Positions 6,883-22,692 are shown, counted from the first letter of the stretch. The stretch: DNA of 64,000 nt from Flavobacteriaceae bacterium UBA3356 (GCA_002360635.1 DEQW01000003.1:370552-434551); one strand, 5' to 3'. Notes: generated from the letters alone by a model not told the origin. Numbers and translations are program-made.

Positions 6883-6900
6883 TTAGTCGGACACGACTAA
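6883..6900. promoter_or_regulatory. perfect 7-bp inverted repeat upstream of menB
   Basis: TTAGTCG-GACA-CGACTAA immediately before a -7-like TATCTTTA (6906-6913). Confidence 0.4.
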
Positions 6901-6930
6901 ATTAGTATCTTTACCGTAAAAATATAAAAT

Positions 6931-7770
6931 ATGAGCACACCCAACTGGAAAACAGCTAAAGAATATTCAGATATTACCTATAAAAAGTCAAATGGCGTAG
7001 CCCGAATCGCATTTAACCGTCCCGATGTTCGCAATGCGTTTCGACCTAAAACCACTTCTGAATTGCTGGATGCTTTTCACGATGCACAAGAAGATACCAC
7101 TGTTGGGGTGGTATTATTATCTGCCGAAGGGCCTTCTTCTAAAGATGGCGTCTATAGCTTTTGTAGTGGTGGTGATCAAAAAGCACGCGGGCACCAAGGT
7201 TATGTAGGTGAAGATGGGTACCATCGCTTAAATATCCTGGAAGTTCAACGGTTAATCCGTTTTATGCCTAAGGCTGTAATTTGCGTGGTTCCTGGTTGGG
7301 CTGTTGGCGGCGGTCATAGTTTGCACGTGGTTTGCGATATGACGTTAGCTAGTAAAGAACATGCTATTTTTAAGCAAACCGATGCCGATGTAACCAGTTT
7401 TGACGGAGGCTACGGAAGTGCTTATTTAGCTAAAATGGTAGGGCAGAAAAAAGCACGTGAGATATTTTTCCTCGGAAGAAATTACAGCGCCCAAGAAGCT
7501 TTTGAAATGGGTATGGTAAATGCGGTAATCCCACATGACGAATTAGAACAAACTGCTTACGAATGGGCGCAAGAAGTGTTAGGAAAGTCACCAACTTCTA
7601 TAAAAATGTTAAAATTTGCAATGAACCTAACCGATGACGGAATGGTCGGGCAACAAGTGTTTGCTGGAGAAGCTACACGTTTAGCATACATGACCGAAGA
7701 AGCAAAAGAAGGTCGAGATGCCTTTTTAGAAAAAAGAAAACCTAATTTTGATAAAAAGTGGTTGCCATAA
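6931..7770 (+). CDS. menB: 1,4-dihydroxy-2-naphthoyl-CoA synthase
   Basis: FCSGGDQK, GWAVGGGHSLHVVCD, SFDGGYGS crotonase/MenB motifs. Confidence 0.97.
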   Translation: MSTPNWKTAKEYSDITYKKSNGVARIAFNRPDVRNAFRPKTTSELLDAFHDAQEDTTVGVVLLSAEGPSSKDGVYSFCSGGDQKARGHQGYVGEDGYHRLNILEVQRLIRFMPKAVICVVPGWAVGGGHSLHVVCDMTLASKEHAIFKQTDADVTSFDGGYGSAYLAKMVGQKKAREIFFLGRNYSAQEAFEMGMVNAVIPHDELEQTAYEWAQEVLGKSPTSIKMLKFAMNLTDDGMVGQQVFAGEATRLAYMTEEAKEGRDAFLEKRKPNFDKKWLP

Positions 7771-7773
7771 AAG

Positions 7774-8745
7774 TTAGGCAACCTTCAACTCTTTTTCCTT
7801 TTTTTCTTCTTTAATTTCTACTTCAAGTTTTTCCTTAGCCATTTCTTTGCGAATTTGCTTTACGGTTAAGGTGCTACCGTCGTGGCTCCAACCTGGAGGG
7901 CCAAATGCGTACATAAATTTGTGGTACCAGTTTTTGGACTTTTTCATATCCTGCCAAATGTTTTGGTATTCGTGCATTAAAATTACGTAGAGGTTATAAG
8001 AGTTTGGTGGGGTAGAAACACCGTATTGAATATCAATATCATCATCCAGCTCTTTCCAAGTGCCAAACATTCTATCAAAAGCATTTAAAATACCGCCGTG
8101 GTTTTTATCCATATACTCAATGTTGCAAGCATGGTGTACTTGGTGCATGGTGTGGGTGTTGATGAACTTTTCAATAAAACCTAAATTTTTAATGTATTTA
8201 GTGTGCAACTGAAACTGCCACAACGCTTCAATACCTAAGCAAACCACTAACATTTCTGGAGGGAAACCGATGATGACAATCCAAACATAGAAAAACGGTT
8301 TGTACAATATGGTGAACCAACCGTTTCTAACTGCAGTTCCCAAATTAAAATTATCGGATGAGTGATGAACAATATGTGCTGCCCAAAGAAAACGAACCAT
8401 GTGGTTTTGCCTATGAAACCAATAGTAAGTAAAATCATCTAACAACATACAGATTATCCAAACATACCAAGCATATCCAAAAGATTCGTAGCCCATAATA
8501 TTGGTGCGAACTCCATCTACAACAGGATTAAAAATATCGTACGCGAAATTAAAAACGAGGATGATGGAAACCGTTTTAATCAACGCTCCTAAAATAGCAG
8601 AGCCAATACCAAGTGATAAACTAGAAAAAAAGTCCTTCCATTTATAAAGGTTTTTATCATCAAAAACTTTACTGTATGAAAGCTCTAATGCAATAAATCC
8701 TAAAAAACAAGGTACCCCATATACTAACGGGTTTGTAAAATCCAT
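7774..8745 (-). CDS. sterol desaturase / fatty acid hydroxylase family protein
   Basis: His boxes HRQNH, HIVHH, HQVHH; TM segments. Confidence 0.9.
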   Translation of the reverse strand: MDFTNPLVYGVPCFLGFIALELSYSKVFDDKNLYKWKDFFSSLSLGIGSAILGALIKTVSIILVFNFAYDIFNPVVDGVRTNIMGYESFGYAWYVWIICMLLDDFTYYWFHRQNHMVRFLWAAHIVHHSSDNFNLGTAVRNGWFTILYKPFFYVWIVIIGFPPEMLVVCLGIEALWQFQLHTKYIKNLGFIEKFINTHTMHQVHHACNIEYMDKNHGGILNAFDRMFGTWKELDDDIDIQYGVSTPPNSYNLYVILMHEYQNIWQDMKKSKNWYHKFMYAFGPPGWSHDGSTLTVKQIRKEMAKEKLEVEIKEEKKEKELKVA

Positions 8746-8885
8746 TCTCTATTAATTATCAAAATTATTAATTTTTGGGACTAAAGTTTGCAAGATAAAG
8801 CTTATAAATTCAACTCAATATCATAACCAAACTTTTTCTAATAAATTGCTATATGAATATAGAAAATCACGCTAAAAAGAGCAAG

Positions 8886-9809
8886 TTATATCTCTTTTAC
8901 TACAAAAAAACCATCATTTCCTTGCGATTGGTATAGTGGCATAAAAATATAGGCATCCCATTCACTTTTAATGGGTTTACCATTATGATGCGCTAATAAC
9001 TCTCCCTTTTTAATTTGCTGAAAATTTTTATAACCAGGTTCCATGGAAAAGGTGTCATCGTTTTCAAGTCCGTGGCGGTATTCAATTTCAAATGTTTTTT
9101 GATTTTCTTTTTGCTTCTGAAGTTTTGAAACTGATTCTGGAAATTTTGAAAGCTCTTTAAGGTCTAAACCACAAGCTTCTTGCAGTGCAATCCAAATGGT
9201 GCCTTCGTGATTTATGATTGATTCTGGGTCATCATGTTGTCCGGCCTCTAGGACAAAACCAGTTAAACCCTGTCGGCTCATATATCCGTCTGTAGTTCCA
9301 TAAACGATATCTGAAAACCCCCTAATTATGTGAGTAGGGAAGCGGTGCGCCCAACTATCGTTATCGTGTACATCTTGTACCGAAGCATACGGTAAACTAT
9401 CTGATGAAGTAGTGTGGCAATCTAAAAAATAGCGCTTTGTATACTTTGAAGCAGGGTAGTTATTCAGTACTTCAATAATACTGAACATTTCCTCTTTTTC
9501 ATTGGTGTCTGTAATATGCTTTTCAATATTCTCTTTTGTCCACGTTCGGTTTAAATCTTCATCAATAAAGCGAACCTCTTTATTAAGTGCTTTTTTATTA
9601 CCGGCAACCCCAACAATAGTCCCTTTTATTTCAGGTTTTGAAACTGAAAGTTCAGCAAAGACTTTTTCTAAAGCGATAATTCCGCTGGGTTCATTACCGT
9701 GGATTCCCGCGGTAACAAACAGCAAAGGACCTTTGTTGTTACTACTATATTTTCCTATTATCCTTGAAATTTCTTTCTTCAAAATATTTCTTTTTAGCTT
9801 CAGAAGCAA
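8886..9809 (-). CDS. succinylglutamate desuccinylase/aspartoacylase (M14-like) family protein
   Basis: GIHGNE, DLNRTW, LDCHTT Zn/catalytic motifs; start codon uncertain (TTG). Confidence 0.85.
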   Translation of the reverse strand: MLLKLKRNILKKEISRIIGKYSSNNKGPLLFVTAGIHGNEPSGIIALEKVFAELSVSKPEIKGTIVGVAGNKKALNKEVRFIDEDLNRTWTKENIEKHITDTNEKEEMFSIIEVLNNYPASKYTKRYFLDCHTTSSDSLPYASVQDVHDNDSWAHRFPTHIIRGFSDIVYGTTDGYMSRQGLTGFVLEAGQHDDPESIINHEGTIWIALQEACGLDLKELSKFPESVSKLQKQKENQKTFEIEYRHGLENDDTFSMEPGYKNFQQIKKGELLAHHNGKPIKSEWDAYIFMPLYQSQGNDGFFVVKEI

Positions 9810-9834
9810 TTATTTAATTTCATTTATTATCTAT

Positions 9835-10887
9835 CTAGTCCATCGTTGCCAATTGCCGATTGGAAAGACTTTTTTTATAATGTGTTTTGTGTTCTATTTT
9901 TCGCTCTATGGCTTTGATTACTGTCTCGGTAAAATCTGGCAGGCCAATATCGTTGCAGTAATCCAATCCGCCGGGACTTAGTACATTTATTTCAATCAAC
10001 TTATCTTTAACGATGTCCAATCCAACAAAAAAGAGCCCGTCCCTAATTAACTTAGGTGCCGTAACATTAACAATTCGTTGCATTTCGTCAGTCAACTTTC
10101 CTTTTTCAGCTTTTCCGCCAAGTGCGAGGTTACTCCTAAATTCAGAATCATCCTTATTTACCCTCCGTATAACGGCTTGCTTGCCATCTTCTTCTAAAAT
10201 TTTACCATTCATTAAAATGACGCGTACATCGCCTTTTGAAACTTCTGGTAGAAACTCTTGTGCGATTACGTATCCCTTTTTGGTAATGGTTTCGATAATT
10301 TGATTGAGGTTCTTCTTGTCCTTATCAATTAAATAAACATTTTGACCTCCTGAACCTTCCAAGGGTTTTAATACCATTTTTTTGCCGTTGTCTTTCCAAA
10401 ACTTTAATAGATCCTCTTTGTTTCGGGTAATTAAACTATTTGGTTTTATAATGGAAGGTAACTCTTCAAAATATAGTTTGTCAATAAAGGCATGGGACAT
10501 GGCAAAAGCATCGTTTAATACCAGAACACCATTTTGCTGAATCATACGTGCAAAGGCAATTCCGCTATGTTCAGCCCAATGTCTATCATCTGTTTCCTCA
10601 GTAGGATTATTCCGAAGAAAAAGTACATCAAGATCTGAACTGCTAATCACTTTATATTTCAGTTCTTCATCCTGTACGCGTTCCCAAAATTTTTCTACTG
10701 TTCTAGATTTTGGTGTTTTCGGTACTTTTTTACACCGCAAACTGATGGGTTTGTCATGGTGAAAAATAAAATCACCTACACTCATTACATATAAATCGTG
10801 CCCTCTCTCGTGTGCTTTTTTCATTAACACTACCGAAGTTCCTATAGCTTCGGATTCTATATCGCTAATTACAAAACATATCTTCAT
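9835..10887 (-). CDS. glutathione-synthetase-like ATP-grasp ligase
   Basis: KPLEGSGGQNV, QEFLPE, FRSNLALGG, EINVLSPGG ATP-grasp motifs. Confidence 0.88.
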   Translation of the reverse strand: MKICFVISDIESEAIGTSVVLMKKAHERGHDLYVMSVGDFIFHHDKPISLRCKKVPKTPKSRTVEKFWERVQDEELKYKVISSSDLDVLFLRNNPTEETDDRHWAEHSGIAFARMIQQNGVLVLNDAFAMSHAFIDKLYFEELPSIIKPNSLITRNKEDLLKFWKDNGKKMVLKPLEGSGGQNVYLIDKDKKNLNQIIETITKKGYVIAQEFLPEVSKGDVRVILMNGKILEEDGKQAVIRRVNKDDSEFRSNLALGGKAEKGKLTDEMQRIVNVTAPKLIRDGLFFVGLDIVKDKLIEINVLSPGGLDYCNDIGLPDFTETVIKAIERKIEHKTHYKKSLSNRQLATMD

Positions 10888-10889
10888 TT

Positions 10890-12728
10890 TTATATCATTT
10901 TAGAAAGGGCCAGCCCTTGTTTTAGTTTATTTATTTTTTTTGTAAAGTCTTTTTGTTCAAAATACCTTGGTTTTAATTTAGGAGGTGTTAACAAGCCTCT
11001 GTCGGTTAAATCCTTGATTACATCTACATGTTTTAAGGCAAATTTTCCCGCCAAAAGAGGTTCCAGCTCGCCGCCATCGATTAAATAATCTCGAAGTTCA
11101 ACCAATCCTTTTAGGTAAATAATATCTTTTAAAAACCCACCTCCCTGAAACATCCTAGAGGTGATATTAAAAGCATGTTCCTTTGAAAACCCATATTCTG
11201 AATACAGTAAATTAAAGACTTGTTTAAAATCGGCCCCACTTAATAACGCATCGCCAGCAACTACACGTCCGGCTAAAATTCGAAGTCGATTGCCAGACAA
11301 CCCACCAATTAAATATTCTGAAAGTACGGCGATTCCTTCCTGAAGGGCGTCATAATCTGCAAAGCCTGCTGCCATTTGGCTTAGCGATTGTTGGCTTCCA
11401 TTAAAATAGGTTAACGCGTGGGTGCCAATTTCGTGCTGCAATAATGAGGCGGCACTATTTTTTGTCATTTTATAGTCTGAGGGTAAATACAACTCGCCCC
11501 GTGAGACCATTATAATGTTCACATCGTCCCGAATATGAACTTTCCCATTAAAATCAGCACTTTGATTTTTAAAATACTCAAACTCTTCTTGGGCTAATTT
11601 TGCAAATGCGTTTGCGTCAATAAGCTGACGTTCTTCTTGTGTATGGTCTTCAGAAATATTTTGAAGAATAAGCTTAGCTTCGGTCAATACATTTTTTTCA
11701 AGTCCTTTGTACAAACGAACACTACTATAAAAGAAATTTTTTGAGTCACGTTCTTTCAACATAGTAAGTTGATGGTCTATTTCTTCACGTTTTTCATCAA
11801 AGAGATAGGAAAGTGCAGGATCATCAATTTCATCAATCCTTAGGTTGTATAACTTACGTTTCAGCAAATCTGGATCTACCGGCAGCAAACGATAGTGATA
11901 GGTGTTTATTTCTTCAAAATTAGTTTCAAAAAAACGTTCTCTAAGGGCTTGAATATTTACAGGTGCTACTAATAGCAAAAATTGATAACTGGATTCAATT
12001 TCGGTAAGTTGTTTGTCAATTTTAAATACTTCGGAATGAATATCACGTTTTCCTAATGCATGAAAATTAGCCAGTTTTGACGTAGTCTGTACCCTTACAA
12101 ACTCAAAAATGGCTTTTTGAATTGCTTCTACAAAATTGTCCCTAAACTTTCTGAAGTAAACAGGATACATGTTATCATGTACATCACGATAAACGGGGGG
12201 GACTTCAAGACCTATTAAAGTTCCTCCTTTTGCTTTGATGTCTTCAATGCTAAAAAGCGGTGTAACTTCTTCAAGTTGACGTTGTTTAGTTTGCTCAATG
12301 CGTGCCGTAAGTTGTACGTTGTATTTTCTACTCGGGATTTTACAGAGCTCGTCTTTTAAAACATCTAACGAGACAGGTAATTTGTGCGAAGGTCCTCGTA
12401 TTACAAACTCGGTGCTATTGGTGTTTCCACTGAAAATTTCCAATAGTATAAAAGAACCGAATTTGCTAGCCATTTTTTCGGTAAGCTTTGAAATAAACTC
12501 TTGAAAAAAATCAAAATTTTCCTCTCCAATAATTAAATAGGAAGCACCGCTTCGAGCCAAGCGTAAAGTAGCTTTATCATCTGGTTTTTTTCTATAAATA
12601 AGTAGGGATGGTACATCGTGTTCCAAAAATAGATACCCGTCATGCGGCAATGGACAAACAGTGCGCTCGCCGGGGGTTAAATCGTTTAAAATTTGTTCTG
12701 TTTTTTTTGAAGTTTCAGATACCTTCAT
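10890..12728 (-). CDS. QEGLA-motif / DUF1704 zinc metallopeptidase (MATCAP-like)
   Basis: HEIGTH (HExxxH) followed by LQEGIA. Confidence 0.85.
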   Translation of the reverse strand: MKVSETSKKTEQILNDLTPGERTVCPLPHDGYLFLEHDVPSLLIYRKKPDDKATLRLARSGASYLIIGEENFDFFQEFISKLTEKMASKFGSFILLEIFSGNTNSTEFVIRGPSHKLPVSLDVLKDELCKIPSRKYNVQLTARIEQTKQRQLEEVTPLFSIEDIKAKGGTLIGLEVPPVYRDVHDNMYPVYFRKFRDNFVEAIQKAIFEFVRVQTTSKLANFHALGKRDIHSEVFKIDKQLTEIESSYQFLLLVAPVNIQALRERFFETNFEEINTYHYRLLPVDPDLLKRKLYNLRIDEIDDPALSYLFDEKREEIDHQLTMLKERDSKNFFYSSVRLYKGLEKNVLTEAKLILQNISEDHTQEERQLIDANAFAKLAQEEFEYFKNQSADFNGKVHIRDDVNIIMVSRGELYLPSDYKMTKNSAASLLQHEIGTHALTYFNGSQQSLSQMAAGFADYDALQEGIAVLSEYLIGGLSGNRLRILAGRVVAGDALLSGADFKQVFNLLYSEYGFSKEHAFNITSRMFQGGGFLKDIIYLKGLVELRDYLIDGGELEPLLAGKFALKHVDVIKDLTDRGLLTPPKLKPRYFEQKDFTKKINKLKQGLALSKMI

Positions 12729-12783
12729 TATTCTTCTTGTTATTGCTTGATCTATGCTTAATAATTTTATCTAAGCATAAGAT

Positions 12784-12814
12784 AAAAAAACGCCTCGATG
12801 AGACCGAGGCGTTT
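12784..12814 (-). terminator. intrinsic terminator after displaced asnB 3' end
   Basis: 10-bp stem AAACGCCTCG/CGAGGCGTTT, 7-nt loop, U-tract on minus strand. Confidence 0.8.
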
Positions 12815-12879
12815 AAAAATTATTTAACGCTAAATTAGCAACCAAAGAGCTATTTGTTAAATTAATAGCTTAAAAATGA

Positions 12880-13079
12880 TTACTTGCTATACGCATCACT
12901 ATGAACGTTTGCAACAGCCCGTCCACTAGGGTCGTTCATGTTTTTAAAACTTTCATCCCATTCTAACGCTGCAGGACTGCTACAGGCTACTGAAGGAACA
13001 GATGGCACACTCAACGCCGCCGTATCACTGGGGAAATGTTCAGTAAAAATAGAACGGTAATAAAACTCTTCTTTGCTGG
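12880..13079 (-). pseudogene. asnB: duplicated 3' fragment of asnB (ends ...AVANVHSDAYSK*)
   Basis: 12889-13079 matches 17581-17771 at 183/191 nt, in frame, with its own stop at 12880-12882. Confidence 0.92.
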
Positions 13080-13158
13080 CAAGTCAACAGCATTTTATTG
13101 ATAAATTAATATCAAAAAATAAAATTTGTATTTTTAATCTTAAAAATACTGACAGAGT

Positions 13159-13893
13159 ATGATTCAAAATATTCAAGAGTTCTTGAACGATATAAAACAT
13201 AAATTTGAGGACGAGAGTTTTCAGGTAAGTGATTTTTCCAGTATTGCACACTTTCCTTTAAATTCTAAGCAATGCATTTACATTATGGATTGGCCAACTG
13301 GTAGGATAACATATAAAAGGAACATATATAAAATATTGGGATATGATGATGATGAATTTAATATAGACATGCTTCTTAACATTGCACACTCCGACGACTT
13401 AAAAATCATCAAACGGATTACTCAAGCCGTTGTGAATCATCTTACGAGCCATACCAAGTTTTCTTACGAAGACACTTCACTAATTTTGATATATAGATTT
13501 CGAAAAAAAGATGGAACTTATATAAAAATATTGAGACAATCCACCTTATTCGAAAAATCAAGTAATGGTATGTTAAAGAGTAATTTATCTATTTTGACGG
13601 ATATTTCATTTGCCGATACCGATGATTATGTAAGTTGGGAATTCCTTGCTCCTCAAATTGAAGAAGAAAATTTTAGAAAAGAAGTCTATAGGGAATTTTC
13701 AAATCTTTTTACAAGGAGGGAAGTGACCATTATAGAGCTTATAGCGGAAAAATATACTACCAAGGATATTGCTGAAAAACTGTTTATTAGTGAGCATACG
13801 GTCAATACCCATAGAAAGAATATTTTAAAAAAAGGAAATTGCCATAATGCAGGTCAACTCATTGCATTTTGTAAAAAAGTAGGCGTGTTATAA
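13159..13893 (+). CDS. PAS-fold + LuxR-type HTH transcriptional regulator
   Basis: C-terminal FTRREVTII...IAEKLFISEHTVNTHRKNILKK LuxR HTH; PAS-like YRFRKKDGTYI; no receiver domain. Confidence 0.88.
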   Translation: MIQNIQEFLNDIKHKFEDESFQVSDFSSIAHFPLNSKQCIYIMDWPTGRITYKRNIYKILGYDDDEFNIDMLLNIAHSDDLKIIKRITQAVVNHLTSHTKFSYEDTSLILIYRFRKKDGTYIKILRQSTLFEKSSNGMLKSNLSILTDISFADTDDYVSWEFLAPQIEEENFRKEVYREFSNLFTRREVTIIELIAEKYTTKDIAEKLFISEHTVNTHRKNILKKGNCHNAGQLIAFCKKVGVL

Positions 13894-13927
13894 ATTGTGT
13901 TATATCAAAATTAGATACTAAGAAAAT

Positions 13928-14734
13928 ATGAGATTTGTTAGAAAAACAATATTAACTAATGGACAGGGTATTTCATATTTGGATAATGAAATTCAATCAA
14001 AGACCACTATTCTTTTTGTTCACGGAAATTCATTAAACAACACCAGTTTTAAAAATCAATTTAACGATAAGGATTTAAACAAATACAGGTTGGTGGCAAT
14101 AGATTTACCCGGGCATGGTGAATCTGAATGGAATAAGGACTATTCAATCCCCCAAATGACCACCGATATTGCAACTTTTTGCAATCAACTAAGGCTAATC
14201 AATTTTATAATTGTTGGCCATTCCTTAGGCGGACATTTGATAATACAATCACTATCAAAATTGAAGAGTTGTAAAGGTGCATTATTAATAGGAACACCGC
14301 CAGTTAAGAGACCATTAAATATCGATATAGCATTTATGCCACATCCCGTAATTCCTTTACTATTTAAAGCAGAACTTACAGCTGAAGAACTGGAATTATT
14401 TGCAGAAAGCGTTTGTGCCCCTCAAAATAAAAAGTATGTCATAAAAAGTATTACTGTCACAGATCCGAAATTTAGAGAAAAGATGATGACTTCAATTATG
14501 CAGGGAGATTTAAAAGATGAAATCCTTATTCTTGAAAAAATAAAAACCCCAGTGGCATTGGTTTATGGGGAAAATGATGAGCTGGTAAATAAAAAATACG
14601 TTAGAAGTTTAAACCTTTCTAATCTTTTTGAACAAAACCCCATATTTATAAAAAATTCTTGGCATGCTTCACATATGAGTAATAGTAATATTTTTAATAA
14701 AGTTTTGAAAGAGTGTGTTTTGGAATTTAATTAA
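13928..14734 (+). CDS. alpha/beta hydrolase, AidH-like (AHL-lactonase-like)
   Basis: HGNS, DLPGHG, GHSLGGH, GTPPV, GENDE, NSWHA. Confidence 0.8.
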   Translation: MRFVRKTILTNGQGISYLDNEIQSKTTILFVHGNSLNNTSFKNQFNDKDLNKYRLVAIDLPGHGESEWNKDYSIPQMTTDIATFCNQLRLINFIIVGHSLGGHLIIQSLSKLKSCKGALLIGTPPVKRPLNIDIAFMPHPVIPLLFKAELTAEELELFAESVCAPQNKKYVIKSITVTDPKFREKMMTSIMQGDLKDEILILEKIKTPVALVYGENDELVNKKYVRSLNLSNLFEQNPIFIKNSWHASHMSNSNIFNKVLKECVLEFN

Positions 14735-14871
14735 AGCTTTATAAAATTGTTATGCGCCCGTTTAATCAAGCAAGTTTGTAAAGCGTATTTTTGTTTTTTA
14801 AATGAATATCTGGTACAGAGTAAATTTATATTTATAAACTGCAAATATTTGTTAGCGGGGAATATGTTTTT

Positions 14872-17241
14872 TTAAAGTTTTATAAACTTGCGTACAATAG
14901 ATTCCTTTTGTCCTGTAAATAACAGAAGGTAAATCCCATCTTCCAAATTATCTATCTCAATACGGTCTGTTTTAGGTAACATTTTTATTAGCCTGCCACG
15001 TAAATCATAAAGCTCAATCTTCTGTATATTATTAAATTCAGGTAACTGGATAAATATTTCGGTGTGAGCGGGGTTTGGATAAATTTGCAAATTCTTAAAG
15101 AAGTTTCCTTCTACACTCAGCGGGTCTTCTACCGATAAAATAGAAGCTGCACGTATAATAACAAGGTCTGGCACAGAAGGATTTGTGATATTGCAGGTAT
15201 AAGTACCACTGTCTTTCACCTGAGAATCCATAATAGTGTATATACTTTCTGTTGCTCCCGTAATTACGGCGCCATCTTTGTACCATTGATAGACATTCCC
15301 ACCAGATTTAAGTGTATAATCTGATTTATTAATTAATGAAGCCATGCCCTCTGGGATATCATCTATTACAAGAGTAATATCATCGCCAACTTCTGCTGAA
15401 ATGCTTTCTTCTTCGTCCATTGTTTTCTGTGGACTGTAGATAAAAGTGGGGATATTGTCATTTAGTATATTAAACACCCCTTCAAAGTCTACAAACTGAT
15501 AATTGTTTTTGTCAATACGTAAAAAGTTCAGATCGAGGTTGGTTAAGAAATCAATATTGCCATGCAGCTCATTATTGCTAAAATCAATGAATGATAAGTT
15601 TTCAAACGTACTAATATTTTCAGAAATCTCTCCAAAATTAGACGTACCTGCCATCCTTAAGAGCTGTAGATTGTCAAGGCCGCTAATGGGTTCAAGATTT
15701 CCACCAATATTCCAATTTCGTAAATTTAAAACCTCCAGATTAGGCAGAAGATCAGAAAATGTGTTAGGAAGGCCGTCACCCGGTTCAAAAATATCACCAT
15801 TTGTGTTTAAAACTGCAAAAGAGCGTAATTTATTCAGGCTAGTAAACGCAGCGGAAGATAAGTCAGGATTAAGATTATTATCAATAAATTCCATCCCACT
15901 TATGTGTTCTACACCTTCATATACATTCGTGGAAATGCCGAACCACTCTCGGATGGGTTCTGAAGAAAGCCAATTGGTATTAGTCACCCAATTTTCACCA
16001 TTAGTATCGTTGTAGAAGTTGGTCAAAGCCCCCCTTTCATTCTCTGGGATAGGCGCGGCTTCATCCATTATATAAACTTGAGATTGTAGTGTAGGAAGAA
16101 GCCCCCAGATTAGGACATCCCCTTTGGCGCCCTCCACACCAAAATTCCCAAGCTCAATATTATTTTCTTCAAAATTATTGTTATTAATATAATTTTTAAG
16201 TTCATAAGACTGTGTGTCATATATGTAGACTGAAATAGTTTCTGTACCTATAATAAGGTTGTTTTGATCAAAGGAGATACCTCTTCCAAAATTACCATCC
16301 TGCTCTAATGGTAAAAGTTGTAATTGCTCATTCTCGGTATATATTGTTGTTCCTGGTATTGAACTAATATCTTCATATATATATACGGCTCCTTTACCAT
16401 TATTTTTGAAGGAACTTATAGCTAATGTGCCATCTTCGCTACTTTCTACCCATGACCCAAACTCATCACCAGAAACACCATCTGATGGAGTAACAAATTG
16501 TTGAGTATCTGTATAAAATATTCGAGGAGGGTTTTGCCGCTCTGTAACACTAAATATATTAACGATACCACTGGTATTAGCTCCTCCTTTAGGAGAGGAT
16601 AATATAAATTCATAGTCGCTCCATGTAAGATCAAGACCGGTACTTGCAGCACCTTGACCTATAAATTCTTGTTCTAGAACCCAAGTATTAAATTCCGAAT
16701 CAAAAGCATAAGTAGCAGCATGACCAGATAACCCATTACGAAAAGGGTCACTTACAGCAATTCTCACACCGTCGTTAAAACCAGAATTAAAAGTCAGTCT
16801 TTCTGACACCGCAGTTTTATAACCGGGATAATCTATAAAGGTTTCGTGCCAATCAAAATTATTAGAACTAAGGCTATATATATAAAGTCCGTCCAAACTG
16901 GTAACAGAAAACACATTTAATGTAGGCGATATACTGATATCAAAACCATATTGGTCGCTAGGGGTATTATTTTCTGGTCTAAAACTCCTTTCAAATTCCC
17001 AAGAAGTTCCATTCCATTCATATAAATAGACAACTCCAACTTGGGGAGATTGACTTGAATCCTCTGATGCCGAAATAATCATTTTATTACCCCCTGCTCC
17101 TCCTACCTCTATCTTTCGTCCAAAAGCTGTCGACTGTGTTCCAAAATTGGGGTCCGTTATCGTTTCTTTGGGATAGTACAAATCTTGCGCCTGCGTGTAA
17201 AATACGGTTAAGCTTAATACTACTAGTAAAAAAATCTTCAT
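14872..17241 (-). CDS. T9SS type A cargo: FG-GAP-like propeller + LRR + Ig-like domain
   Basis: Signal peptide; FG/YG repeats (SDQYGFDISI, GDEFGSWV, GNFGRGIS); ALTNFYNDTNGENW + LRRs; YQWYKDG...DSGTYTC Ig; CTD IYPNPAHTE...IELYDLRGRLI...LEDGIYLL. Confidence 0.88.
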   Translation of the reverse strand: MKIFLLVVLSLTVFYTQAQDLYYPKETITDPNFGTQSTAFGRKIEVGGAGGNKMIISASEDSSQSPQVGVVYLYEWNGTSWEFERSFRPENNTPSDQYGFDISISPTLNVFSVTSLDGLYIYSLSSNNFDWHETFIDYPGYKTAVSERLTFNSGFNDGVRIAVSDPFRNGLSGHAATYAFDSEFNTWVLEQEFIGQGAASTGLDLTWSDYEFILSSPKGGANTSGIVNIFSVTERQNPPRIFYTDTQQFVTPSDGVSGDEFGSWVESSEDGTLAISSFKNNGKGAVYIYEDISSIPGTTIYTENEQLQLLPLEQDGNFGRGISFDQNNLIIGTETISVYIYDTQSYELKNYINNNNFEENNIELGNFGVEGAKGDVLIWGLLPTLQSQVYIMDEAAPIPENERGALTNFYNDTNGENWVTNTNWLSSEPIREWFGISTNVYEGVEHISGMEFIDNNLNPDLSSAAFTSLNKLRSFAVLNTNGDIFEPGDGLPNTFSDLLPNLEVLNLRNWNIGGNLEPISGLDNLQLLRMAGTSNFGEISENISTFENLSFIDFSNNELHGNIDFLTNLDLNFLRIDKNNYQFVDFEGVFNILNDNIPTFIYSPQKTMDEEESISAEVGDDITLVIDDIPEGMASLINKSDYTLKSGGNVYQWYKDGAVITGATESIYTIMDSQVKDSGTYTCNITNPSVPDLVIIRAASILSVEDPLSVEGNFFKNLQIYPNPAHTEIFIQLPEFNNIQKIELYDLRGRLIKMLPKTDRIEIDNLEDGIYLLLFTGQKESIVRKFIKL

Positions 17242-17493
17242 AATGTTAACGTTTAAATTATAAATATTTGGAAACCCATATAATGAAAATAAATAATCTG
17301 AATAAAGGCTATACAGTTAATTGCTCTTAAGCCTCAGATTGTGCATCGTCTCTGCTTTGTTTATCGTCATTTGGTTATTTTTTTATAACCTATTGATTTA
17401 TACAATAAAATTAAGATAAGTAATAGCAGAAATCAATACCTATTGGTGGGTATTTTTTAAAGATTAAGCTTAGTTTCTTTTTATGTTCCCAAG

Positions 17494-17527
17494 AAAAACC
17501 CCAAAGACCTTTAAGATCTTTGAGGTT
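17494..17527 (-). terminator. intrinsic terminator after functional asnB
   Basis: AACCTCAAAGATC-TTAAA-GGTCTTTGGGGTT then U-rich on minus strand (G-U wobbles fit this strand). Confidence 0.65.
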
Positions 17528-17577
17528 CACATAAATTACCCGTTTATAAGAAGCGGTTTTGGAAATTGGCTTTAAAA

Positions 17578-19242
17578 CTAATACGCATCACTATGAACCT
17601 TTGCAACAGCCCGTCCACTAGGGTCGTTCATGTTTTTAAAACTTTCATCCCATTCTAACGCTGCAGGACTGCTACAAGCAACCGAAGGAACAGATGGCAC
17701 ACTCAACGCCGCCGTATCACTTGGAAAATGTTCAGTAAAAATAGAACGGTAGTAAAACTCTTCTTTACTGGTAGGGGTTTGTATAGGAAATTTAAAATGG
17801 GCGTTTTCCATTTGTTCATCACTTACTTTCTCGTTAACCATTTCTTTTAATGTGTCAATCCAGCTGTAGCCGACACCATCACTAAATTGCTCTTTTTGGC
17901 GCCAAGCAACGCTTTCGGGAAGCATATCTTCAAATGCTTTTCGTAGTACCCATTTTTCCATACGTTCGCCGTTTATCATTTTATCATCTGGGTTTAAGCG
18001 CATGGCTACATCCATAAACTCTTTATCTAAAAAAGGAACACGGCCTTCAATACCCCAAGCAGCTAAACTTTTGTTGGCTCGTAAGCAATCGTACTGGTGT
18101 AATTTATCCAATTTTCTAACGGTTTCTTTGTGCAACTCTTCTCCATTTGGTGCTTTGTGAAAGTATAAGTAGCCACCAAAAATTTCGTCGCTCCCTTCAC
18201 CACTTAAAACCATTTTTATTCCTAACGCTTTTATTGCACGAGCCATTAAAAACATAGGTGTAGAAGCGCGGATAGTAGTAATATCATAGGTTTCTAAATG
18301 GTAAATAACATCACGAATCGCATCAATCCCTTCTTGAATGGTAAATTTTATTTCGTGATGTACCGTATCTAAATGATCGGCTACTTTTTGAGCGGCAGCT
18401 AGATCTGGGCTTCCTTCCAGACCAATGGCAAAAGAATGTAACCTTGGGTACCAAGCATTTTCTTTGTCACCGGTTTCAATACGTTTGTCTGCATATTTTT
18501 TGGCAACAGCTGAGGTAATGGAAGAATCCAATCCACCGGAAAGTAAGACCCCGTATGGCACATCACTCATTAATTGACGATGCACAGCCGCATCTAAAGC
18601 ATTGCGCAACTCTTCAATGCTGGTTTCATTGTCTTTTACAGCGTCATATTCCATCCAATCGCGGGTGTACCATTTTTTTAATTCGCCTTCTTTACTGTAG
18701 AGGTAATGGCCAGGGGGGAAGAGTTCGATTTTGGTGCAAATACCTTCCAAAGCTTTTAATTCTGAAGCTACGTAAAAAGTTCCATTTTGATCCCAGCCCA
18801 TATACAGTGGAATGATTCCCATATGGTCGCGGGCGATTAAATATTCATCATTTTCAACATCATAAATGGCAAAGCCGAAGATTCCGTTTAATTCATCTAA
18901 AAAGTCGCCTCCTTTTTCTTTAAAGAGGGGTAAGATTACTTCGCAATCAGATTTTGTTTGAAATTCATACTTCCCTTCAAACTGCTTCCGTAATTCCAAA
19001 TGGTTATAAATTTCACCATTGGCAGCCAATACAAACTTCTTGTCTTTACTGAAAAGTGGCTGTTTTCCTGAAGTAGGATCTACAATTGCTAAACGCTCGT
19101 GGGCCATAATGGCTTTGTCGTTATCGAAAATTCCACTCCAATCCGGCCCCCGGTGACGGATACATTTACTCATTGACAATACCTGCAAGCGCAAGGCTTC
19201 TGCTGGCTCTTTTAGTTTAAAGGCACATACAATTCCACACAT
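17578..19242 (-). CDS. asnB: asparagine synthase B (glutamine-hydrolysing)
   Basis: N-terminal MCG nucleophile, RHRGPD, LSGGLDSS, SGEGSDE, EGRVPFLD. Confidence 0.97.
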   Translation of the reverse strand: MCGIVCAFKLKEPAEALRLQVLSMSKCIRHRGPDWSGIFDNDKAIMAHERLAIVDPTSGKQPLFSKDKKFVLAANGEIYNHLELRKQFEGKYEFQTKSDCEVILPLFKEKGGDFLDELNGIFGFAIYDVENDEYLIARDHMGIIPLYMGWDQNGTFYVASELKALEGICTKIELFPPGHYLYSKEGELKKWYTRDWMEYDAVKDNETSIEELRNALDAAVHRQLMSDVPYGVLLSGGLDSSITSAVAKKYADKRIETGDKENAWYPRLHSFAIGLEGSPDLAAAQKVADHLDTVHHEIKFTIQEGIDAIRDVIYHLETYDITTIRASTPMFLMARAIKALGIKMVLSGEGSDEIFGGYLYFHKAPNGEELHKETVRKLDKLHQYDCLRANKSLAAWGIEGRVPFLDKEFMDVAMRLNPDDKMINGERMEKWVLRKAFEDMLPESVAWRQKEQFSDGVGYSWIDTLKEMVNEKVSDEQMENAHFKFPIQTPTSKEEFYYRSIFTEHFPSDTAALSVPSVPSVACSSPAALEWDESFKNMNDPSGRAVAKVHSDAY

Positions 19243-19279
19243 AATTTCTATATTTTATTGGTTAGTAGTTTTAAAACAC

Positions 19280-19313
19280 AAAAAACCCGTCAAGTTAAAA
19301 AAACCTGACGGGC
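19280..19313 (-). terminator. attenuator terminator upstream of asnB
   Basis: RNA CCCGUCAGG-loop-CUUGACGGG followed by UUUUUU, about 38 nt before asnB ATG. Confidence 0.85.
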
Positions 19314-19335
19314 TATATATTGCGACAAGTTTTTG

Positions 19336-19386
19336 CTACGGCAACGGGTTATTATTATTGTTATTATTTAAGTTGAAAAGTAACAT
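19336..19386 (-). CDS. asnB leader peptide MLLFNLNNNNNNNPLP* (16 aa, 8 Asn)
   Basis: Hand translation from ATG 19386; seven consecutive Asn codons; directly precedes antiterminator/terminator pair. Confidence 0.85.
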   Translation of the reverse strand: MLLFNLNNNNNNNPLP

Positions 19387-19515
19387 ACTACTTGTTTTTG
19401 TCTTTTATGATTATTTGTAAATATTCAATAAAAAAATCGAGGATTCCAAATTTTAATCATCAATTATTTTGTTTTTTGCAATTAAAATCGATTTTAAGTG
19501 CTTTAAAATAAAGGC

Positions 19516-20040
19516 TTAACGATCGAATAAAATTATTTCGATTGGAAGGGCTTTTTCTGGAATTTCGTTTCCATTTATATCATAAAAAGCATGTTTTACA
19601 CTTGTATCTTTCCGAAGGTGTACACGATATATTTCTCTTTCAGGAAAATAAACTGTGATAAAATCGGCATACTTTACATCAAAATCTTTGTAATCAAATT
19701 GAAGTTTCAACCGGACTGTTTCAGGGATGGTTCCTGCTTCCATATATTCTGAATGAAATATCAATGTACCATCTGTTAGATACGAAGCTGAAGAACCGGG
19801 ATTTCCATCTTCTTCAAATTTTGAAATATACCGTACGGCTTTATCATCTGTGGCATCAAATCCTTTTTGAAGCTGCCATTCTGATATAAACCCACCCGGA
19901 AAAAGTGTGTCTTGGTTTGTTAGTACCGCTTGTGGAACTTCAGATTCAGCAATGGTTGGCTGAGATAAATTGACATCTTGGGCTTTCGTAAATAAAGGAA
20001 AAAAAAGTAATAATATAATTAGTAAAGTACTGTTTTTCAT
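19516..20040 (-). CDS. secreted hypothetical protein (PepSY-like/BLIP-like repeats plausible)
   Basis: Signal peptide; EVPQAV...FP and TIPETV...DY duplicated pattern; -7 TATATTTG at 20073-20080. Confidence 0.6.
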   Translation of the reverse strand: MKNSTLLIILLLFFPLFTKAQDVNLSQPTIAESEVPQAVLTNQDTLFPGGFISEWQLQKGFDATDDKAVRYISKFEEDGNPGSSASYLTDGTLIFHSEYMEAGTIPETVRLKLQFDYKDFDVKYADFITVYFPEREIYRVHLRKDTSVKHAFYDINGNEIPEKALPIEIILFDR

Positions 20041-20106
20041 AGTCGTTATCTTTATAAATTCAATAAAAGATACAAATATAACAGCTAGAAAAACAGTACT
20101 TTATGA

Positions 20107-22521: not shown

Positions 22522-22692
22522 AGTCTGTGTTTTGAGTTACAAAAGTAGCGAAATCAGCCGGATTTTGCAATGTAATATTTTTACTGAATTGTTAATATTT
22601 ATCGGTAAACAGTATCAATTTTCTAATTTAGGCACTTGTTTTAACAAGCTTGCTGTGAAAACTGAAAATTATTTTTCTGATAAAGGGGGCTT

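What the first reader, a model, noticed from the sequence alone, without database searches (positions are those of the whole stretch)
12880..17771. 191-bp asnB 3'-end duplication brackets an integrase-less islet
Seen: 12889-13079 vs 17581-17771 differ at 8/191 nt; 7 changes are synonymous third positions and 1 is K to N, so both copies evolved as functional asnB ends. The orphan copy ends HSDAYSK* with its own terminator (12784-12814); the functional copy ends HSDAY* with a different terminator (17494-17527). Inference: a circle carrying a foreign asnB 3' end integrated Campbell-style, restoring the gene and displacing the native end. No integrase or transposase lies inside, so it was mobilised in trans, by homologous recombination, or has lost its recombinase. 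asnB would be a protein-coding integration hotspot.
Basis: partly seen in the sequence, partly recalled or inferred. Interest (0 to 1): 0.68.

Follow-up and report, generated by a model that had tools for sequence, protein, structure and literature searches.

The report
Gene cassette displacing asnB's end
A 4.5-kb block of three accessory genes was spliced into the tail of the asparagine synthetase gene of a marine flavobacterium, which rebuilt the gene's end and pushed the old end downstream; this is a real example of a known scar, integrase-free "insertion with long target duplication", at a gene-swapping hot spot.

Summary
Positions 12889-13079 and 17581-17771 are a 191-nt direct repeat with 8 differences, 7 of them synonymous and one K/N.

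In four congeners (the genus is Marixanthomonas) the two flanks are contiguous and overlap by exactly 191 nt. There asnB ends ...YSK* with the 12.8-kb terminator and abuts the MATCAP/QEGLA operon. So the 4.5-kb islet plus the new stop and terminator is an insertion, and the orphan is the native end.

The islet has no recombinase or tRNA gene, and the nearest tyrosine recombinase is 142 kb away.

The cargo is not an alien element. It is a divergent version of a three-gene module (PAS-LuxR, alpha/beta-hydrolase, T9SS surface protein) that sits in this same locus in other congeners. There it is bracketed by a duplicated menB 3' end.

asnB and menB are convergent neighbours in at least 36 species, 22 bp to 20 kb apart. 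Orphan 3' ends occur at both genes at about 1% of species: asnB in 4 of 287, with repeats of about 100 to 280 nt, and menB in 3 of 380.

The best reading is host homologous recombination anchored in the conserved gene end, most simply a single crossover with a circularised fragment. It is a new member of a known kind and of moderate interest.

The parts
17578..19242 (-). Functional asnB (glutamine-hydrolysing asparagine synthetase, 554 aa), ending ...VAKVHSDAY*. It is the only strong Asn_synthase gene in the genome.
   Evidence: ORF. Pfam GATase_7 plus Asn_synthase, E = 5e-89. 95% nt identity to G007 and G002 over the gene body. Only strong PF00733 hit in the genome.
17581..17771 (-). Repeat copy 1: the last 63 sense codons of the functional asnB.
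   Evidence: It is 97.9% identical to G007 and 98.4% to G002. K553 (AAG) is unique among 8 congener sequences.
17242..17577 (-). Non-native asnB 3' UTR, with a terminator hairpin at about 17494-17528, and the spacer up to the start of the T9SS gene. This is the left end of the inserted DNA.
   Evidence: It is absent from all congeners, and homology to them stops right after the TAT codon. The hairpin folds at -18.8 kcal/mol. Similarity to the native UTR is not above chance.
14872..17241 (-). Cargo gene 3: a T9SS-exported surface protein of 789 aa with a signal peptide, FG-GAP repeats, an LRR-like region, an Ig domain and a Por_Secre_tail.
   Evidence: Pfam. Full-length collinear alignment at 26% identity with the 711-aa protein in the same position in congener G006. 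Nearest database relative is 66% identical and lies in another context.
13928..14734 (+). Cargo gene 2: an alpha/beta-hydrolase of 268 aa.
   Evidence: Pfam Abhydrolase_1/6. 45% identical to the G006 counterpart.
13159..13893 (+). Cargo gene 1: a PAS plus LuxR/GerE-type HTH regulator of 244 aa.
   Evidence: Pfam PAS_3 plus GerE. 50% identical to the congeners' copy. 61% identical to Algibacter sp. PT7-4.
13080..13158 (.). Right end of the inserted DNA: 79 AT-rich bases upstream of the LuxR gene, joined at 13079/13080 to the interior of asnB. In the circle model this is the closure junction.
   Evidence: Homology between the two asnB copies and to the relatives ends at 13079. There is no menB remnant here or elsewhere in the islet. 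The junction is assembled identically in an independent MAG.
12880..13079 (-). Orphan (displaced, native) asnB 3' end: 65 codons plus a stop, ...VANVHSDAYSK*, with no 5' part and no start codon.
   Evidence: It is contiguous with the same downstream DNA as in the intact asnB of G007, G002, G003 and G001.
12784..12814 (-). Native asnB intrinsic terminator, now downstream of the orphan.
   Evidence: Terminator scan. Fold at -17 kcal/mol. Conserved in six congeners.
8886..12728 (-). Native downstream neighbour: the MATCAP/QEGLA peptidase, ATP-grasp ligase (GSH-S-like) and AstE/AspA-like operon. This is context, not cargo.
   Evidence: Pfam. Syntenic and 95% identical in G007.
6931..8745 (.). Far flank of the variable locus: menB (6931-7770, plus strand) converging on a sterol-desaturase-family gene (7774-8745, minus strand). 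In this genome it is the 'empty' form of the site where congeners carry the LuxR-hydrolase module plus an orphan menB end.
   Evidence: Compared with G005, G006 and G389.

Best explanation
This Marixanthomonas genome gained a 4.5-kb three-gene accessory module: a PAS-LuxR regulator, an alpha/beta-hydrolase and a T9SS-exported FG-GAP/LRR/Ig surface protein. The module was inserted into the last 191 nt of asnB by recombination anchored in the conserved end of the gene and carried out by the host's own recombination enzymes. No element-encoded integrase was involved.

The simplest path is as follows. A DNA fragment from a related flavobacterium carried the end of its asnB plus the genes downstream. 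It closed into a circle and crossed over once with the chromosomal asnB (Campbell-type).

The result:
- asnB was rebuilt with a new last few codons, a new stop and a new terminator.
- The native end and its terminator were left 4.7 kb downstream as a dead fragment.

asnB is the cell's only asparagine synthetase gene, so only insertions that restore the reading frame persist.

Shown: the insertion, the displaced native end, the lack of a recombinase, and the recurrence at both flanks of the locus.

Inferred: the circular intermediate, dependence on host recombination, and the identity of the donor.

The event is one case of cassette turnover in a family-wide variable gap between the convergent core genes asnB and menB. 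It belongs to the described class 'insertion with long target duplication'.
For: 1. Empty site. In G007, G002, G003 and G001, window 6900-13079 and 17581-23999 are contiguous and the two alignments overlap by exactly 191 nt. asnB there is 556 aa, ends YSK* and abuts the MATCAP gene. The cargo DNA is absent from these genomes.

2. Both flanks are equally close to G007 (95% and 94%), so only the 4.5 kb is new.

3. No recombinase. The islet encodes only LuxR, the hydrolase and the T9SS protein. There is no tRNA gene. The nearest Phage_integrase hit is 142 kb away. The cargo matches no plasmid or phage.

4. The cargo is a module that belongs to this locus.
- G006 has menB-LuxR-hydrolase-T9SS-desaturase-asnB. 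G005 has the same pair between menB and the desaturase.
- The proteins align over their full length at 50%, 45% and 26% identity.

5. Mirror-image scars. In G005, G006 and Marinirhabdus (G389) the module lies between menB and an orphan menB 3' end beside the desaturase.
- In G005 the orphan is 88% identical to the functional end.
- It is followed by the same DNA that follows menB in the window.

6. Recurrence without an integrase and with varying repeat lengths.
- asnB orphans: G055 (276 nt, 94%, one-gene cargo), G322 (about 100 nt, two-gene cargo), G131 (at least 230 nt, 85%).
- The menB control gives the same rate, 3 of 380 against 4 of 287.

7. Both copies carry mostly synonymous differences (P = 1e-4), so the two ends evolved as working genes.

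8. Allele pattern. At the 5' sites the functional copy has the G007/G002 alleles. At the 3' end the orphan has them. This fits a reciprocal crossover inside the longest identical stretch, 77 nt between repeat positions 94 and 172.

9. Experimental precedent. In E. coli, DNA with one-sided homology mostly integrated as a circle by single crossover and duplicated 109-950 bp of the target (PMC3240628). The class 'insertion with long target duplication', with no mobility genes, is documented (PMC2853133).

10. An independent MAG contig (DORY01000262.1) carries the same UTR-cargo-orphan-MATCAP arrangement at 100% identity.
Against: - No donor was found, so the circle-closure junction at 13079/13080 cannot be checked for microhomology. 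Exact-pattern and protein scans of genome and metagenome contigs gave nothing.
- The allele polarity is only suggestive. Either copy's distance to G007/G002 is compatible with ordinary 5% divergence.
- The cargo is far more divergent than its asnB arm. LuxR is 50% identical to congeners and 61% to Algibacter, whereas the arm is 96% identical. This needs an unsampled congener donor or more than one step.
- Excision, a circle and dependence on host recombination were not tested.
- The arm boundary in menB is nearly the same (nt 716-735) in three genomes of two genera. A site-specific enzyme would also produce this, although common descent or a portable arm explains it too.
Confidence: 0.6

Rival explanations
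1. The islet is a site-specific element without its own enzyme (CIME-like or decayed). The 191-nt repeats would be attL and attR, and the islet was inserted by a tyrosine or serine recombinase that is encoded elsewhere or has since been deleted.
For: - The architecture is that of islands inserted in 3' ends of protein genes: direct repeats, a restored gene end and its own terminator.
- The genome encodes 9 tyrosine-recombinase hits that could act in trans.
- The menB arm starts at almost the same nucleotide in three genomes.
Against: - None of seven asnB or menB cases has a recombinase in the sequence seen.
- asnB repeat lengths vary from about 100 to 276 nt, with different 5' boundaries.
- Two different target genes are used by the same kind of cargo.
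- The cargo is a locus-resident chromosomal module.
- The nearest integrase is 142 kb away.
- There is no second asnB-like att copy in the genome.
Confidence: 0.15
2. The insertion was one-ended and needed no circle. A linear donor fragment, or a broken or stalled chromosome end copying from it, paired with asnB only at its extreme 3' end. Its other end joined illegitimately 191 nt upstream, which duplicated the recipient's own segment (HFIR-like or template switching). The synonymous differences arose later, when the functional copy was overwritten by ordinary allelic recombination with a G002-like relative.
For: - The functional copy is unusually close to G002 (98.4% against 94.7% for the gene body). 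Only its last 20 nt, the stop and the UTR are clearly foreign.
- HSDAY* is the usual asnB end in other genera. LuxR is closest to Algibacter. A distant donor with only short homology is therefore conceivable.
- HFIR is documented.
Against: - Described HFIR events usually delete recipient DNA. In the E. coli test, duplications came from circles.
- It needs two further events, the allelic import and private mutations.
- The orphan carries alleles shared with G003 and G001 at three sites. These fit donor DNA as well as native DNA.
Confidence: 0.15
3. The polarity is reversed. The block desaturase-AstE-ligase-MATCAP plus the asnB fragment was brought in from a G007-like donor and placed between menB and LuxR. 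The recipient natively had menB-LuxR-hydrolase-T9SS-asnB.
For: - G006 shows that menB-LuxR-hydrolase-T9SS-(desaturase)-asnB without the MATCAP operon exists in the genus.
- The functional asnB copy is the one closer to G007/G002.
Against: - Six of seven congeners, including the four closest, have asnB next to the MATCAP operon.
- The functional copy's K553, its stop and its UTR are unlike those of every congener.
- There is no identity discontinuity around 7774-13079.
- Congeners with LuxR beside menB keep an orphan menB end. The window has none.
Confidence: 0.04
4. The structure is an assembly artefact, produced by a collapsed or chimeric join at a repeat.
For: - The genome is a 12-contig draft.
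- The MAG scaffold has an N gap and mixed alleles inside the orphan copy.
Against: - The two copies differ at 8 sites and in their downstream DNA, and they lie inside an 853-kb contig.
- An independent MAG assembles UTR-cargo-orphan-MATCAP identically and breaks exactly at the repeat edge.
- The same design is seen in other genomes.
Confidence: 0.02

Closest known systems
Insertion with long target duplication (Nobusato et al. 2000, Gene 259:99; Furuta, Abe & Kobayashi 2010, PMC2853133)
   Same: - A gene block under 20 kb is present in one genome and absent at the same site in a close relative.
- It is flanked by a long direct duplication of the target. That paper lists repeats from 46 to about 420 bp, of variable length.
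- There are no mobility genes in the insert.
   Different: - The described cases were screened for restriction-modification cargo and are mostly within one species. Here the cargo is a regulator, a hydrolase and a surface protein.
- The duplicated target is the coding end of an essential biosynthetic gene.
- The two copies differ by synonymous changes.
Campbell-type single crossover of a circular molecule with partial homology (suicide-plasmid integration; E. coli conjugation test, PMC3240628)
   Same: It produces exactly this structure. The homology arm is duplicated in direct orientation around the insert. In that experiment, 109-950 bp duplications were the majority outcome for one-sided homology.
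   Different: That is a laboratory substrate carried on a plasmid. Here the circle is inferred and must have formed from chromosomal DNA of a relative.
Islands and prophages inserted in the 3' ends of protein genes with a restored end (e14 and phage 21 in icd; SGI1 in trmE; CIMEs, which lack an integrase)
   Same: The gene end is duplicated, the functional copy is rebuilt by the element, and the old end is displaced.
   Different: - Those use an integrase and a fixed core site.
- Here no integrase was found in seven cases, the repeat lengths vary, and two different genes are targeted by the same kind of cargo.
Core-gene-flanked variable loci exchanged by flanking homology (minimal mobile elements of Neisseria; named from my own knowledge)
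   Same: Two conserved genes (asnB, menB) bracket a gap that holds different cassettes in different species, from 22 bp to 20 kb.
   Different: Classical exchange there is a clean double crossover that leaves no scar. Here single-sided events leave orphan gene ends.
C-terminal displacement in rhs, CDI and T6SS effector loci (Jackson 2009; Kirchberger 2017, PMC5361080)
   Same: A new 3' end with its downstream genes displaces the old 3' end, which stays as an orphan. Homology-facilitated recombination is proposed for those loci.
   Different: There the new end encodes a different toxin domain and is the point of the exchange. Here the new end encodes nearly the same protein and is only a by-product.

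Membership tests
Insertion with long target duplication | The insert is absent at the same site in a related genome, whose single target sequence aligns with both repeats. | tested here: met
   In four congeners the two flank alignments overlap by exactly 191 nt. Nucleotide alignment.
Insertion with long target duplication | The direct duplication is longer than 30 bp and variable in length between cases. | tested here: met
   191 nt here. 276, about 100 and at least 230 nt in G055, G322 and G131. About 120 nt at menB.
Insertion with long target duplication | The insert is under 20 kb and carries no integrase, transposase or other mobility gene. | tested here: met
   4501 nt with three genes, none of them mobility-related. 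No tRNA gene.
Insertion with long target duplication | The cargo is a restriction-modification system. This was the screen criterion of the describing papers. | tested here: not met
   The cargo is a PAS-LuxR regulator, an alpha/beta-hydrolase and a T9SS surface protein.
Site-specific integrative island, IME or CIME at a gene 3' end | A tyrosine or serine recombinase lies in or beside the element. For a CIME, a cognate one lies elsewhere. | tested here: not met
   None in the islet or the window. The nearest PF00589 hit is 142 kb away. Whether any resident enzyme is cognate was not tested. Serine recombinases were not searched genome-wide.
Site-specific integrative island, IME or CIME at a gene 3' end | A fixed att core shared by elements at the same target. 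| tested here: inconclusive
   The 5' boundaries in asnB differ: about codon 463 in G055, 492 here and about 522 in G322. All end at the stop codon. The menB boundaries are nearly equal.
Site-specific integrative island, IME or CIME at a gene 3' end | Excision to a circle and an empty site. | not testable with these tools
Campbell-type homologous single crossover | The duplicated segment equals the homology arm, and the two copies are direct and flank the insert. | tested here: met
Campbell-type homologous single crossover | Reciprocal distribution of donor and recipient alleles on either side of the crossover. | tested here: inconclusive
   The pattern fits a crossover between repeat positions 94 and 172, but it is within normal divergence.
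Campbell-type homologous single crossover | Dependence on RecA or host recombination. | not testable with these tools
   Needs genetics.
Homology-facilitated illegitimate recombination | One homologous anchor plus a microhomology junction at the other end, usually with deletion of recipient DNA. | tested here: inconclusive
   An anchor is present. The junction cannot be judged without the donor. The outcome here is a duplication, not a deletion.
Core-gene-flanked variable locus (MME-like hot spot) | The same two conserved genes flank different gene content in different genomes. | tested here: met
   asnB and menB are convergent, 22 bp to 20 kb apart, in at least 36 species. Different contents in G000, G002, G005, G006, G007 and G389.

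The most novel reading that the evidence does not exclude
The PAS-LuxR/hydrolase/surface-protein module may be a self-propagating cassette that needs no integrase and carries a 'portable homology arm'.

- Recombination between its flanking repeats would release a circle holding the cargo plus one copy of the 3' end of the adjacent core gene, menB or asnB.
- That circle could re-insert by a single crossover into the same gene of any relative, always recreating the same arm boundary.

This would explain three things: the near-identical menB arm start in two genera, the mirror-image asnB case here, and possibly the long-unexplained mechanism behind 'insertion with long target duplication' in general.
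Probability: 0.2. Interest if true: 0.6.

Novelty: new member of a known kind. Interest (0 to 1): 0.38.

Why it matters
The finding gives a clean natural example of an accessory gene block entering a genome with no integrase or transposase. It has filled and empty sites in cultured congeners (Marixanthomonas and Marinirhabdus), and the conserved end of an essential gene serves as the landing homology.

It also shows that the gap between asnB and menB is a family-wide cassette-exchange site in Flavobacteriaceae, and that both flanking genes carry the same kind of scar. Orphan gene ends are therefore a usable marker for such events.

The molecular mechanism of 'insertion with long target duplication' has not been established experimentally since it was described in 2000 (my own knowledge of the literature). 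This locus offers a simple construct to test it: a 191-nt asnB arm plus a marker.

In practice, annotation pipelines should not read such orphan ends as pseudogenes of a second asnB. Island finders that require an integrase will miss this class.

Tried and rejected
1. Donor search. An exact 22-mer across the new stop/UTR junction found nothing in genome contigs or metagenome contigs. LuxR protein scans of metagenome and genome contigs found no close relative. The T9SS protein has only itself and a 66% homologue in an unrelated context. The donor lineage is unsampled.

2. Plasmid or phage origin. There is no blastn match to the cargo.

3. Homology of the new UTR to the native UTR. MAFFT suggested it, but the local alignment score equals the shuffle mean. 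Rejected.

4. A menB remnant inside the islet, which would have shown a G006-like donor layout. None was found.

5. tRNA or a known RNA as target. There are no tRNA genes. The only Rfam hit is a sub-threshold match on the terminator.

6. A recombination breakpoint upstream of 17771 in the asnB body. Identity to G007/G002 rises from 94-95% to 97-98% over the last 500 nt, but without a sharp edge. Not conclusive.

8. A first alignment with three loci on the wrong strand was discarded and redone.

9. Literature. No paper in the library combines asnB, integration site and genomic island.

Full report
**1. The observation**

The window is G000:C3:370552-434551, from a 3.14-Mb, 12-contig genome.

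The repeat:
- The repeat finder gives one long direct pair, 12889-13079 and 17581-17771: 191 nt, 96% identical, 4692 nt apart.
- A self-BLAST of the whole genome finds no further copy.

Read on the minus strand, both copies are the last 63 sense codons of asnB.
- The functional gene (17578-19242, 554 aa; Pfam GATase_7 plus Asn_synthase) ends ...VAKVHSDAY*.
- The orphan ends ...VANVHSDAYSK*, with its stop at 12880-12882.

The differences:
- All eight lie at third codon positions. Seven are synonymous and one is AAG/AAC.
- Only 20.6% of random substitutions here would be synonymous, so P is 1e-4 for 7 or more out of 8.

The terminators:
- The native hairpin plus T-run at 12788-12814 is found by the scan and folds at -17.0 kcal/mol.
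- The hairpin behind the functional copy (about 17494-17528) is missed by the simple scan. It folds as a 15-bp stem at -18.8 kcal/mol, with no shuffle folding as well.

**2. It is an insertion, and the orphan is the native end**

The genus has seven other species genomes. A 20-kb query around the site gave two alignments each in G007, G002, G003 and G001.
- One alignment ends at window 13079 and the other starts at window 17581.
- In each genome the two overlap by exactly 191 nt. In G007, for example, they are C5:73819-79995 and C5:79805-86225.
- These genomes therefore hold the empty site.

In those genomes:
- asnB is 556 aa and ends ...VANVHSDAYSK*. It is followed by the same UTR and terminator as the orphan, and then by the MATCAP/QEGLA gene.
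- G004 also ends YSK*, G005 ends YSN* and G006 ends YQK*.
- None has the HSDAY* end, K553 or the 17.5-kb terminator.

Two further points:
- Both flanks are equally close to G007, at 95% and 94%.
- The cargo DNA gives no match in G001, G002, G003, G004 or G007.

The reverse reading is that the MATCAP block plus the asnB fragment was inserted between menB and LuxR. It would require the four closest and two further congeners to be derived, so it is unlikely.

**3. What is inside**

The islet holds three genes:

| Coordinates | Strand | Product |
|---|---|---|
| 13159-13893 | + | PAS plus LuxR/GerE regulator |
| 13928-14734 | + | alpha/beta-hydrolase |
| 14872-17241 | - | 789-aa protein with signal peptide, FG-GAP repeats, Ig domain and the T9SS sorting tail |

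- No recombinase, transposase or tRNA gene is present.
- The only Rfam hit is a sub-threshold match on the terminator.
- The genome has nine Phage_integrase hits, and the nearest lies 142 kb from the islet.
- G+C dips to 30-31% over the LuxR and hydrolase genes, against 35-40% in the flanks.
- The cargo matches nothing in the plasmid and phage collections.

**4. The cargo belongs to this locus**

In congener G006 the order is menB, LuxR, hydrolase, a 711-aa T9SS FG-GAP/LRR/Ig protein, a desaturase and asnB.

In G005 the order is asnB, MATCAP, ligase, AstE, desaturase, a 557-aa lipoprotein, hydrolase, LuxR and menB.

The window's three proteins align over their full length with the G006 ones, in the same order and orientation. 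Identity is only 50%, 45% and 26%. The islet is therefore a highly divergent version of a module that lives in the same menB-asnB interval in relatives.

A profile search named the relatives:
- G005 is Marixanthomonas spongiae HN-E44.
- G389 is Marinirhabdus gelatinilytica DSM 101478.
- The window's LuxR is closest, at 56-61% identity, to Algibacter and Mariniflexile proteins. There the LuxR-hydrolase pair is not next to menB or asnB.

**5. Mirror-image scars at menB**

In G005, G006 and G389 the module lies between menB and an orphan menB 3' end of 34-42 codons. The orphan sits directly beside the desaturase gene.
- In M. spongiae the orphan is 88% identical to the functional end (14 differences in 120 nt) and its reading frame is intact.
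- It is followed by the same DNA that follows the functional menB in the window, where the menB and desaturase stops are 3 bp apart.
- In Marinirhabdus the two copies are identical over 121 nt.
- In G002 the menB-desaturase junction instead holds a 164-aa membrane-protein ORF.

So the same design (new gene end, cargo, displaced native end) occurs at the other flank of the locus, with the same kind of cargo.

**6. Recurrence and a control**

I searched the 65 C-terminal residues of asnB in six frames in 401 species of the family. Of these, 287 have the gene end, and four have a second, orphan copy.

| Genome | Repeat | Cargo |
|---|---|---|
| Window (G000) | 191 nt, 96% | three-gene module |
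| G055 | 276 nt, 94%; the orphan has acquired a stop | one 251-aa secreted protein |
| G322 | about 100 nt, decayed | FabI-like plus FabH-like genes |
| G131 | at least 230 nt, 85%, frame intact; the orphan sits at a contig start | response regulator, histidine kinase, T9SS LRR protein |

- No recombinase is visible in any of them.
- The 5' boundary of the repeat differs between cases.
- All repeats end at the stop codon. That is expected if homology between donor and recipient simply stops where the conserved gene stops.

The same search with the menB C-terminus is the control.
- It found extra fragments in 3 of 380 genomes, the same order of magnitude.
- That sample did not include G005 and G006.

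The two tables also show that asnB and menB are convergent neighbours in at least 36 species. The gap between them runs from 22 bp (G202) through 0.6-5 kb (many genomes) to 18-20 kb (G389, G178).

The hot spot is therefore the gap between two conserved, convergent genes, not a site peculiar to asnB.

The genome itself holds two more islets bracketed by diverged direct repeats:
- 640 nt at 95% identity around a methylase-like gene;
- 204 nt at 94% identity in an ICE-like region.

**7. Mechanism**

A structure in which the target segment is duplicated in direct orientation around the insert is what a single crossover gives, when it occurs between the chromosome and a circle carrying that segment.

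An E. coli study was designed to detect homology-facilitated illegitimate recombination. In it, 56 of 60 events were such single crossovers, and 14 of these clones were sequenced. In them, circles with a truncated arm had duplicated 109-950 bp of the target (PMC3240628).

Kobayashi's group described the natural class as 'insertion with long target duplication'. Its features are inserts under 20 kb, repeats longer than 30 bp and of variable length, no mobility genes, and occurrence mostly in competent species (PMC2853133). The window meets every structural criterion. Only the cargo differs, because it is not a restriction-modification system.

The allele pattern fits a reciprocal crossover:
- At repeat positions 4, 46, 49, 88 and 94 the functional copy carries the G007/G002 allele and the orphan another allele, partly shared with G003 and G001.
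- At position 172, at the stop and in the UTR, the orphan carries the congeners' state and the functional copy is unique.
- The inferred exchange lies in the longest identical stretch, 77 nt.

This evidence is weak. Both copies are within the normal 5% distance from G007 and G002.

A rival reading fits too. The orphan could be wholly native, and the functional copy could have been overwritten later by allelic recombination with a G002-like strain.

What is robust is narrower. The last codons, the stop and the terminator of the functional gene came with the cargo. The native end was displaced.

The arm is 96% identical to the native sequence, while the cargo is far more divergent. The immediate donor was therefore probably an unsampled congener that already carried this module beside asnB. 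No donor was found.

asnB is the only strong asparagine synthetase gene in the genome. Selection would therefore keep only insertions that restore it.

**8. Assembly**

An independent MAG contig (GCA_003514105.1, DORY01000262.1) is 100% identical over the compared parts.
- It starts 8 nt after the functional repeat.
- It then runs through the new UTR, the cargo, the orphan and the MATCAP operon to menB.
- Its orphan copy contains an N gap and functional-copy alleles at five sites. I take this for short-read mixing at a repeat, but it could be real gene conversion.

**9. Verdict**

The insertion, the restored gene and the displaced native end are shown. A Campbell-type route is the best fit but is not proven.
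- The 'hotspot' is the asnB-menB gap, with the conserved gene ends serving as homology anchors.
- Earlier notes of this scan list many such integrase-free islets at other gene ends. They are leads, not support.
- This is a new member of a known kind. It is of moderate interest, mainly as a clean, testable case for a mechanism that has not been established experimentally.

Noticed in passing
L031 (G005, Marixanthomonas spongiae) about 11050-11170, minus strand; L030 (G006) 14303-14416; L048/L056 (G389, Marinirhabdus gelatinilytica) about 6373-6705 / 14168-14485: Orphan menB 3' ends of 34-42 codons, with frames intact, lie beside the desaturase gene. The PAS-LuxR/hydrolase module sits between them and the functional menB. 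All three start at about nt 716-735 of menB.
   Followed up: partly
G000:C3:652298-652937 and 658125-658763 (outside the window): A 640-nt direct repeat at 95% identity, being two copies of a gene of about 200 aa, brackets 5.2 kb. That stretch includes a 743-aa DNA-methylase-like ORF. It may be a second 'insertion with long target duplication' in the same genome, this time with restriction-modification-like cargo.
   Followed up: partly
G000:C4:233535-233738 and 240119-240321 (outside the window): A 204-nt direct repeat at 94% identity brackets 6.4 kb of hypothetical genes. It lies inside a region that is duplicated at 84-91% identity on contig C5 (ICE-like, with ssb- and radC-like genes).
   Followed up: no
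L047 (MAG contig DORY01000262.1), orphan copy; aligned to window 12880-13079: The MAG's orphan asnB copy has an N gap. After the gap it carries the functional-copy alleles at five sites and the orphan allele at position 172. This is either short-read mixing at the repeat or real gene conversion in the population.
   Followed up: no
L033 (G002) 13140-13634: G002 has a 164-aa membrane-protein ORF between menB and the desaturase, where the window has a 3-bp gap. This is another cassette slot in the same locus.
   Followed up: no
G202:C1:1397475-1397885: Here the asnB and menB ends are only 22 bp apart, the minimal form of the locus. The asnB frame is open for only 258 aa, so the gene may be broken or mis-sequenced.
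   Followed up: no
L049-L055 (Algibacter, Mariniflexile and MAGs): The closest relatives of the window's LuxR (56-61% identity) also sit next to the hydrolase. They are often followed by a second LuxR paralogue and T9SS-type proteins, away from menB and asnB. The regulator-hydrolase pair is thus a conserved unit beyond this locus.
   Followed up: partly
window 13000-15000: G+C falls to 30-31% over the LuxR and hydrolase genes. It is 35-40% in the flanks and 36% in the T9SS gene.
   Followed up: no
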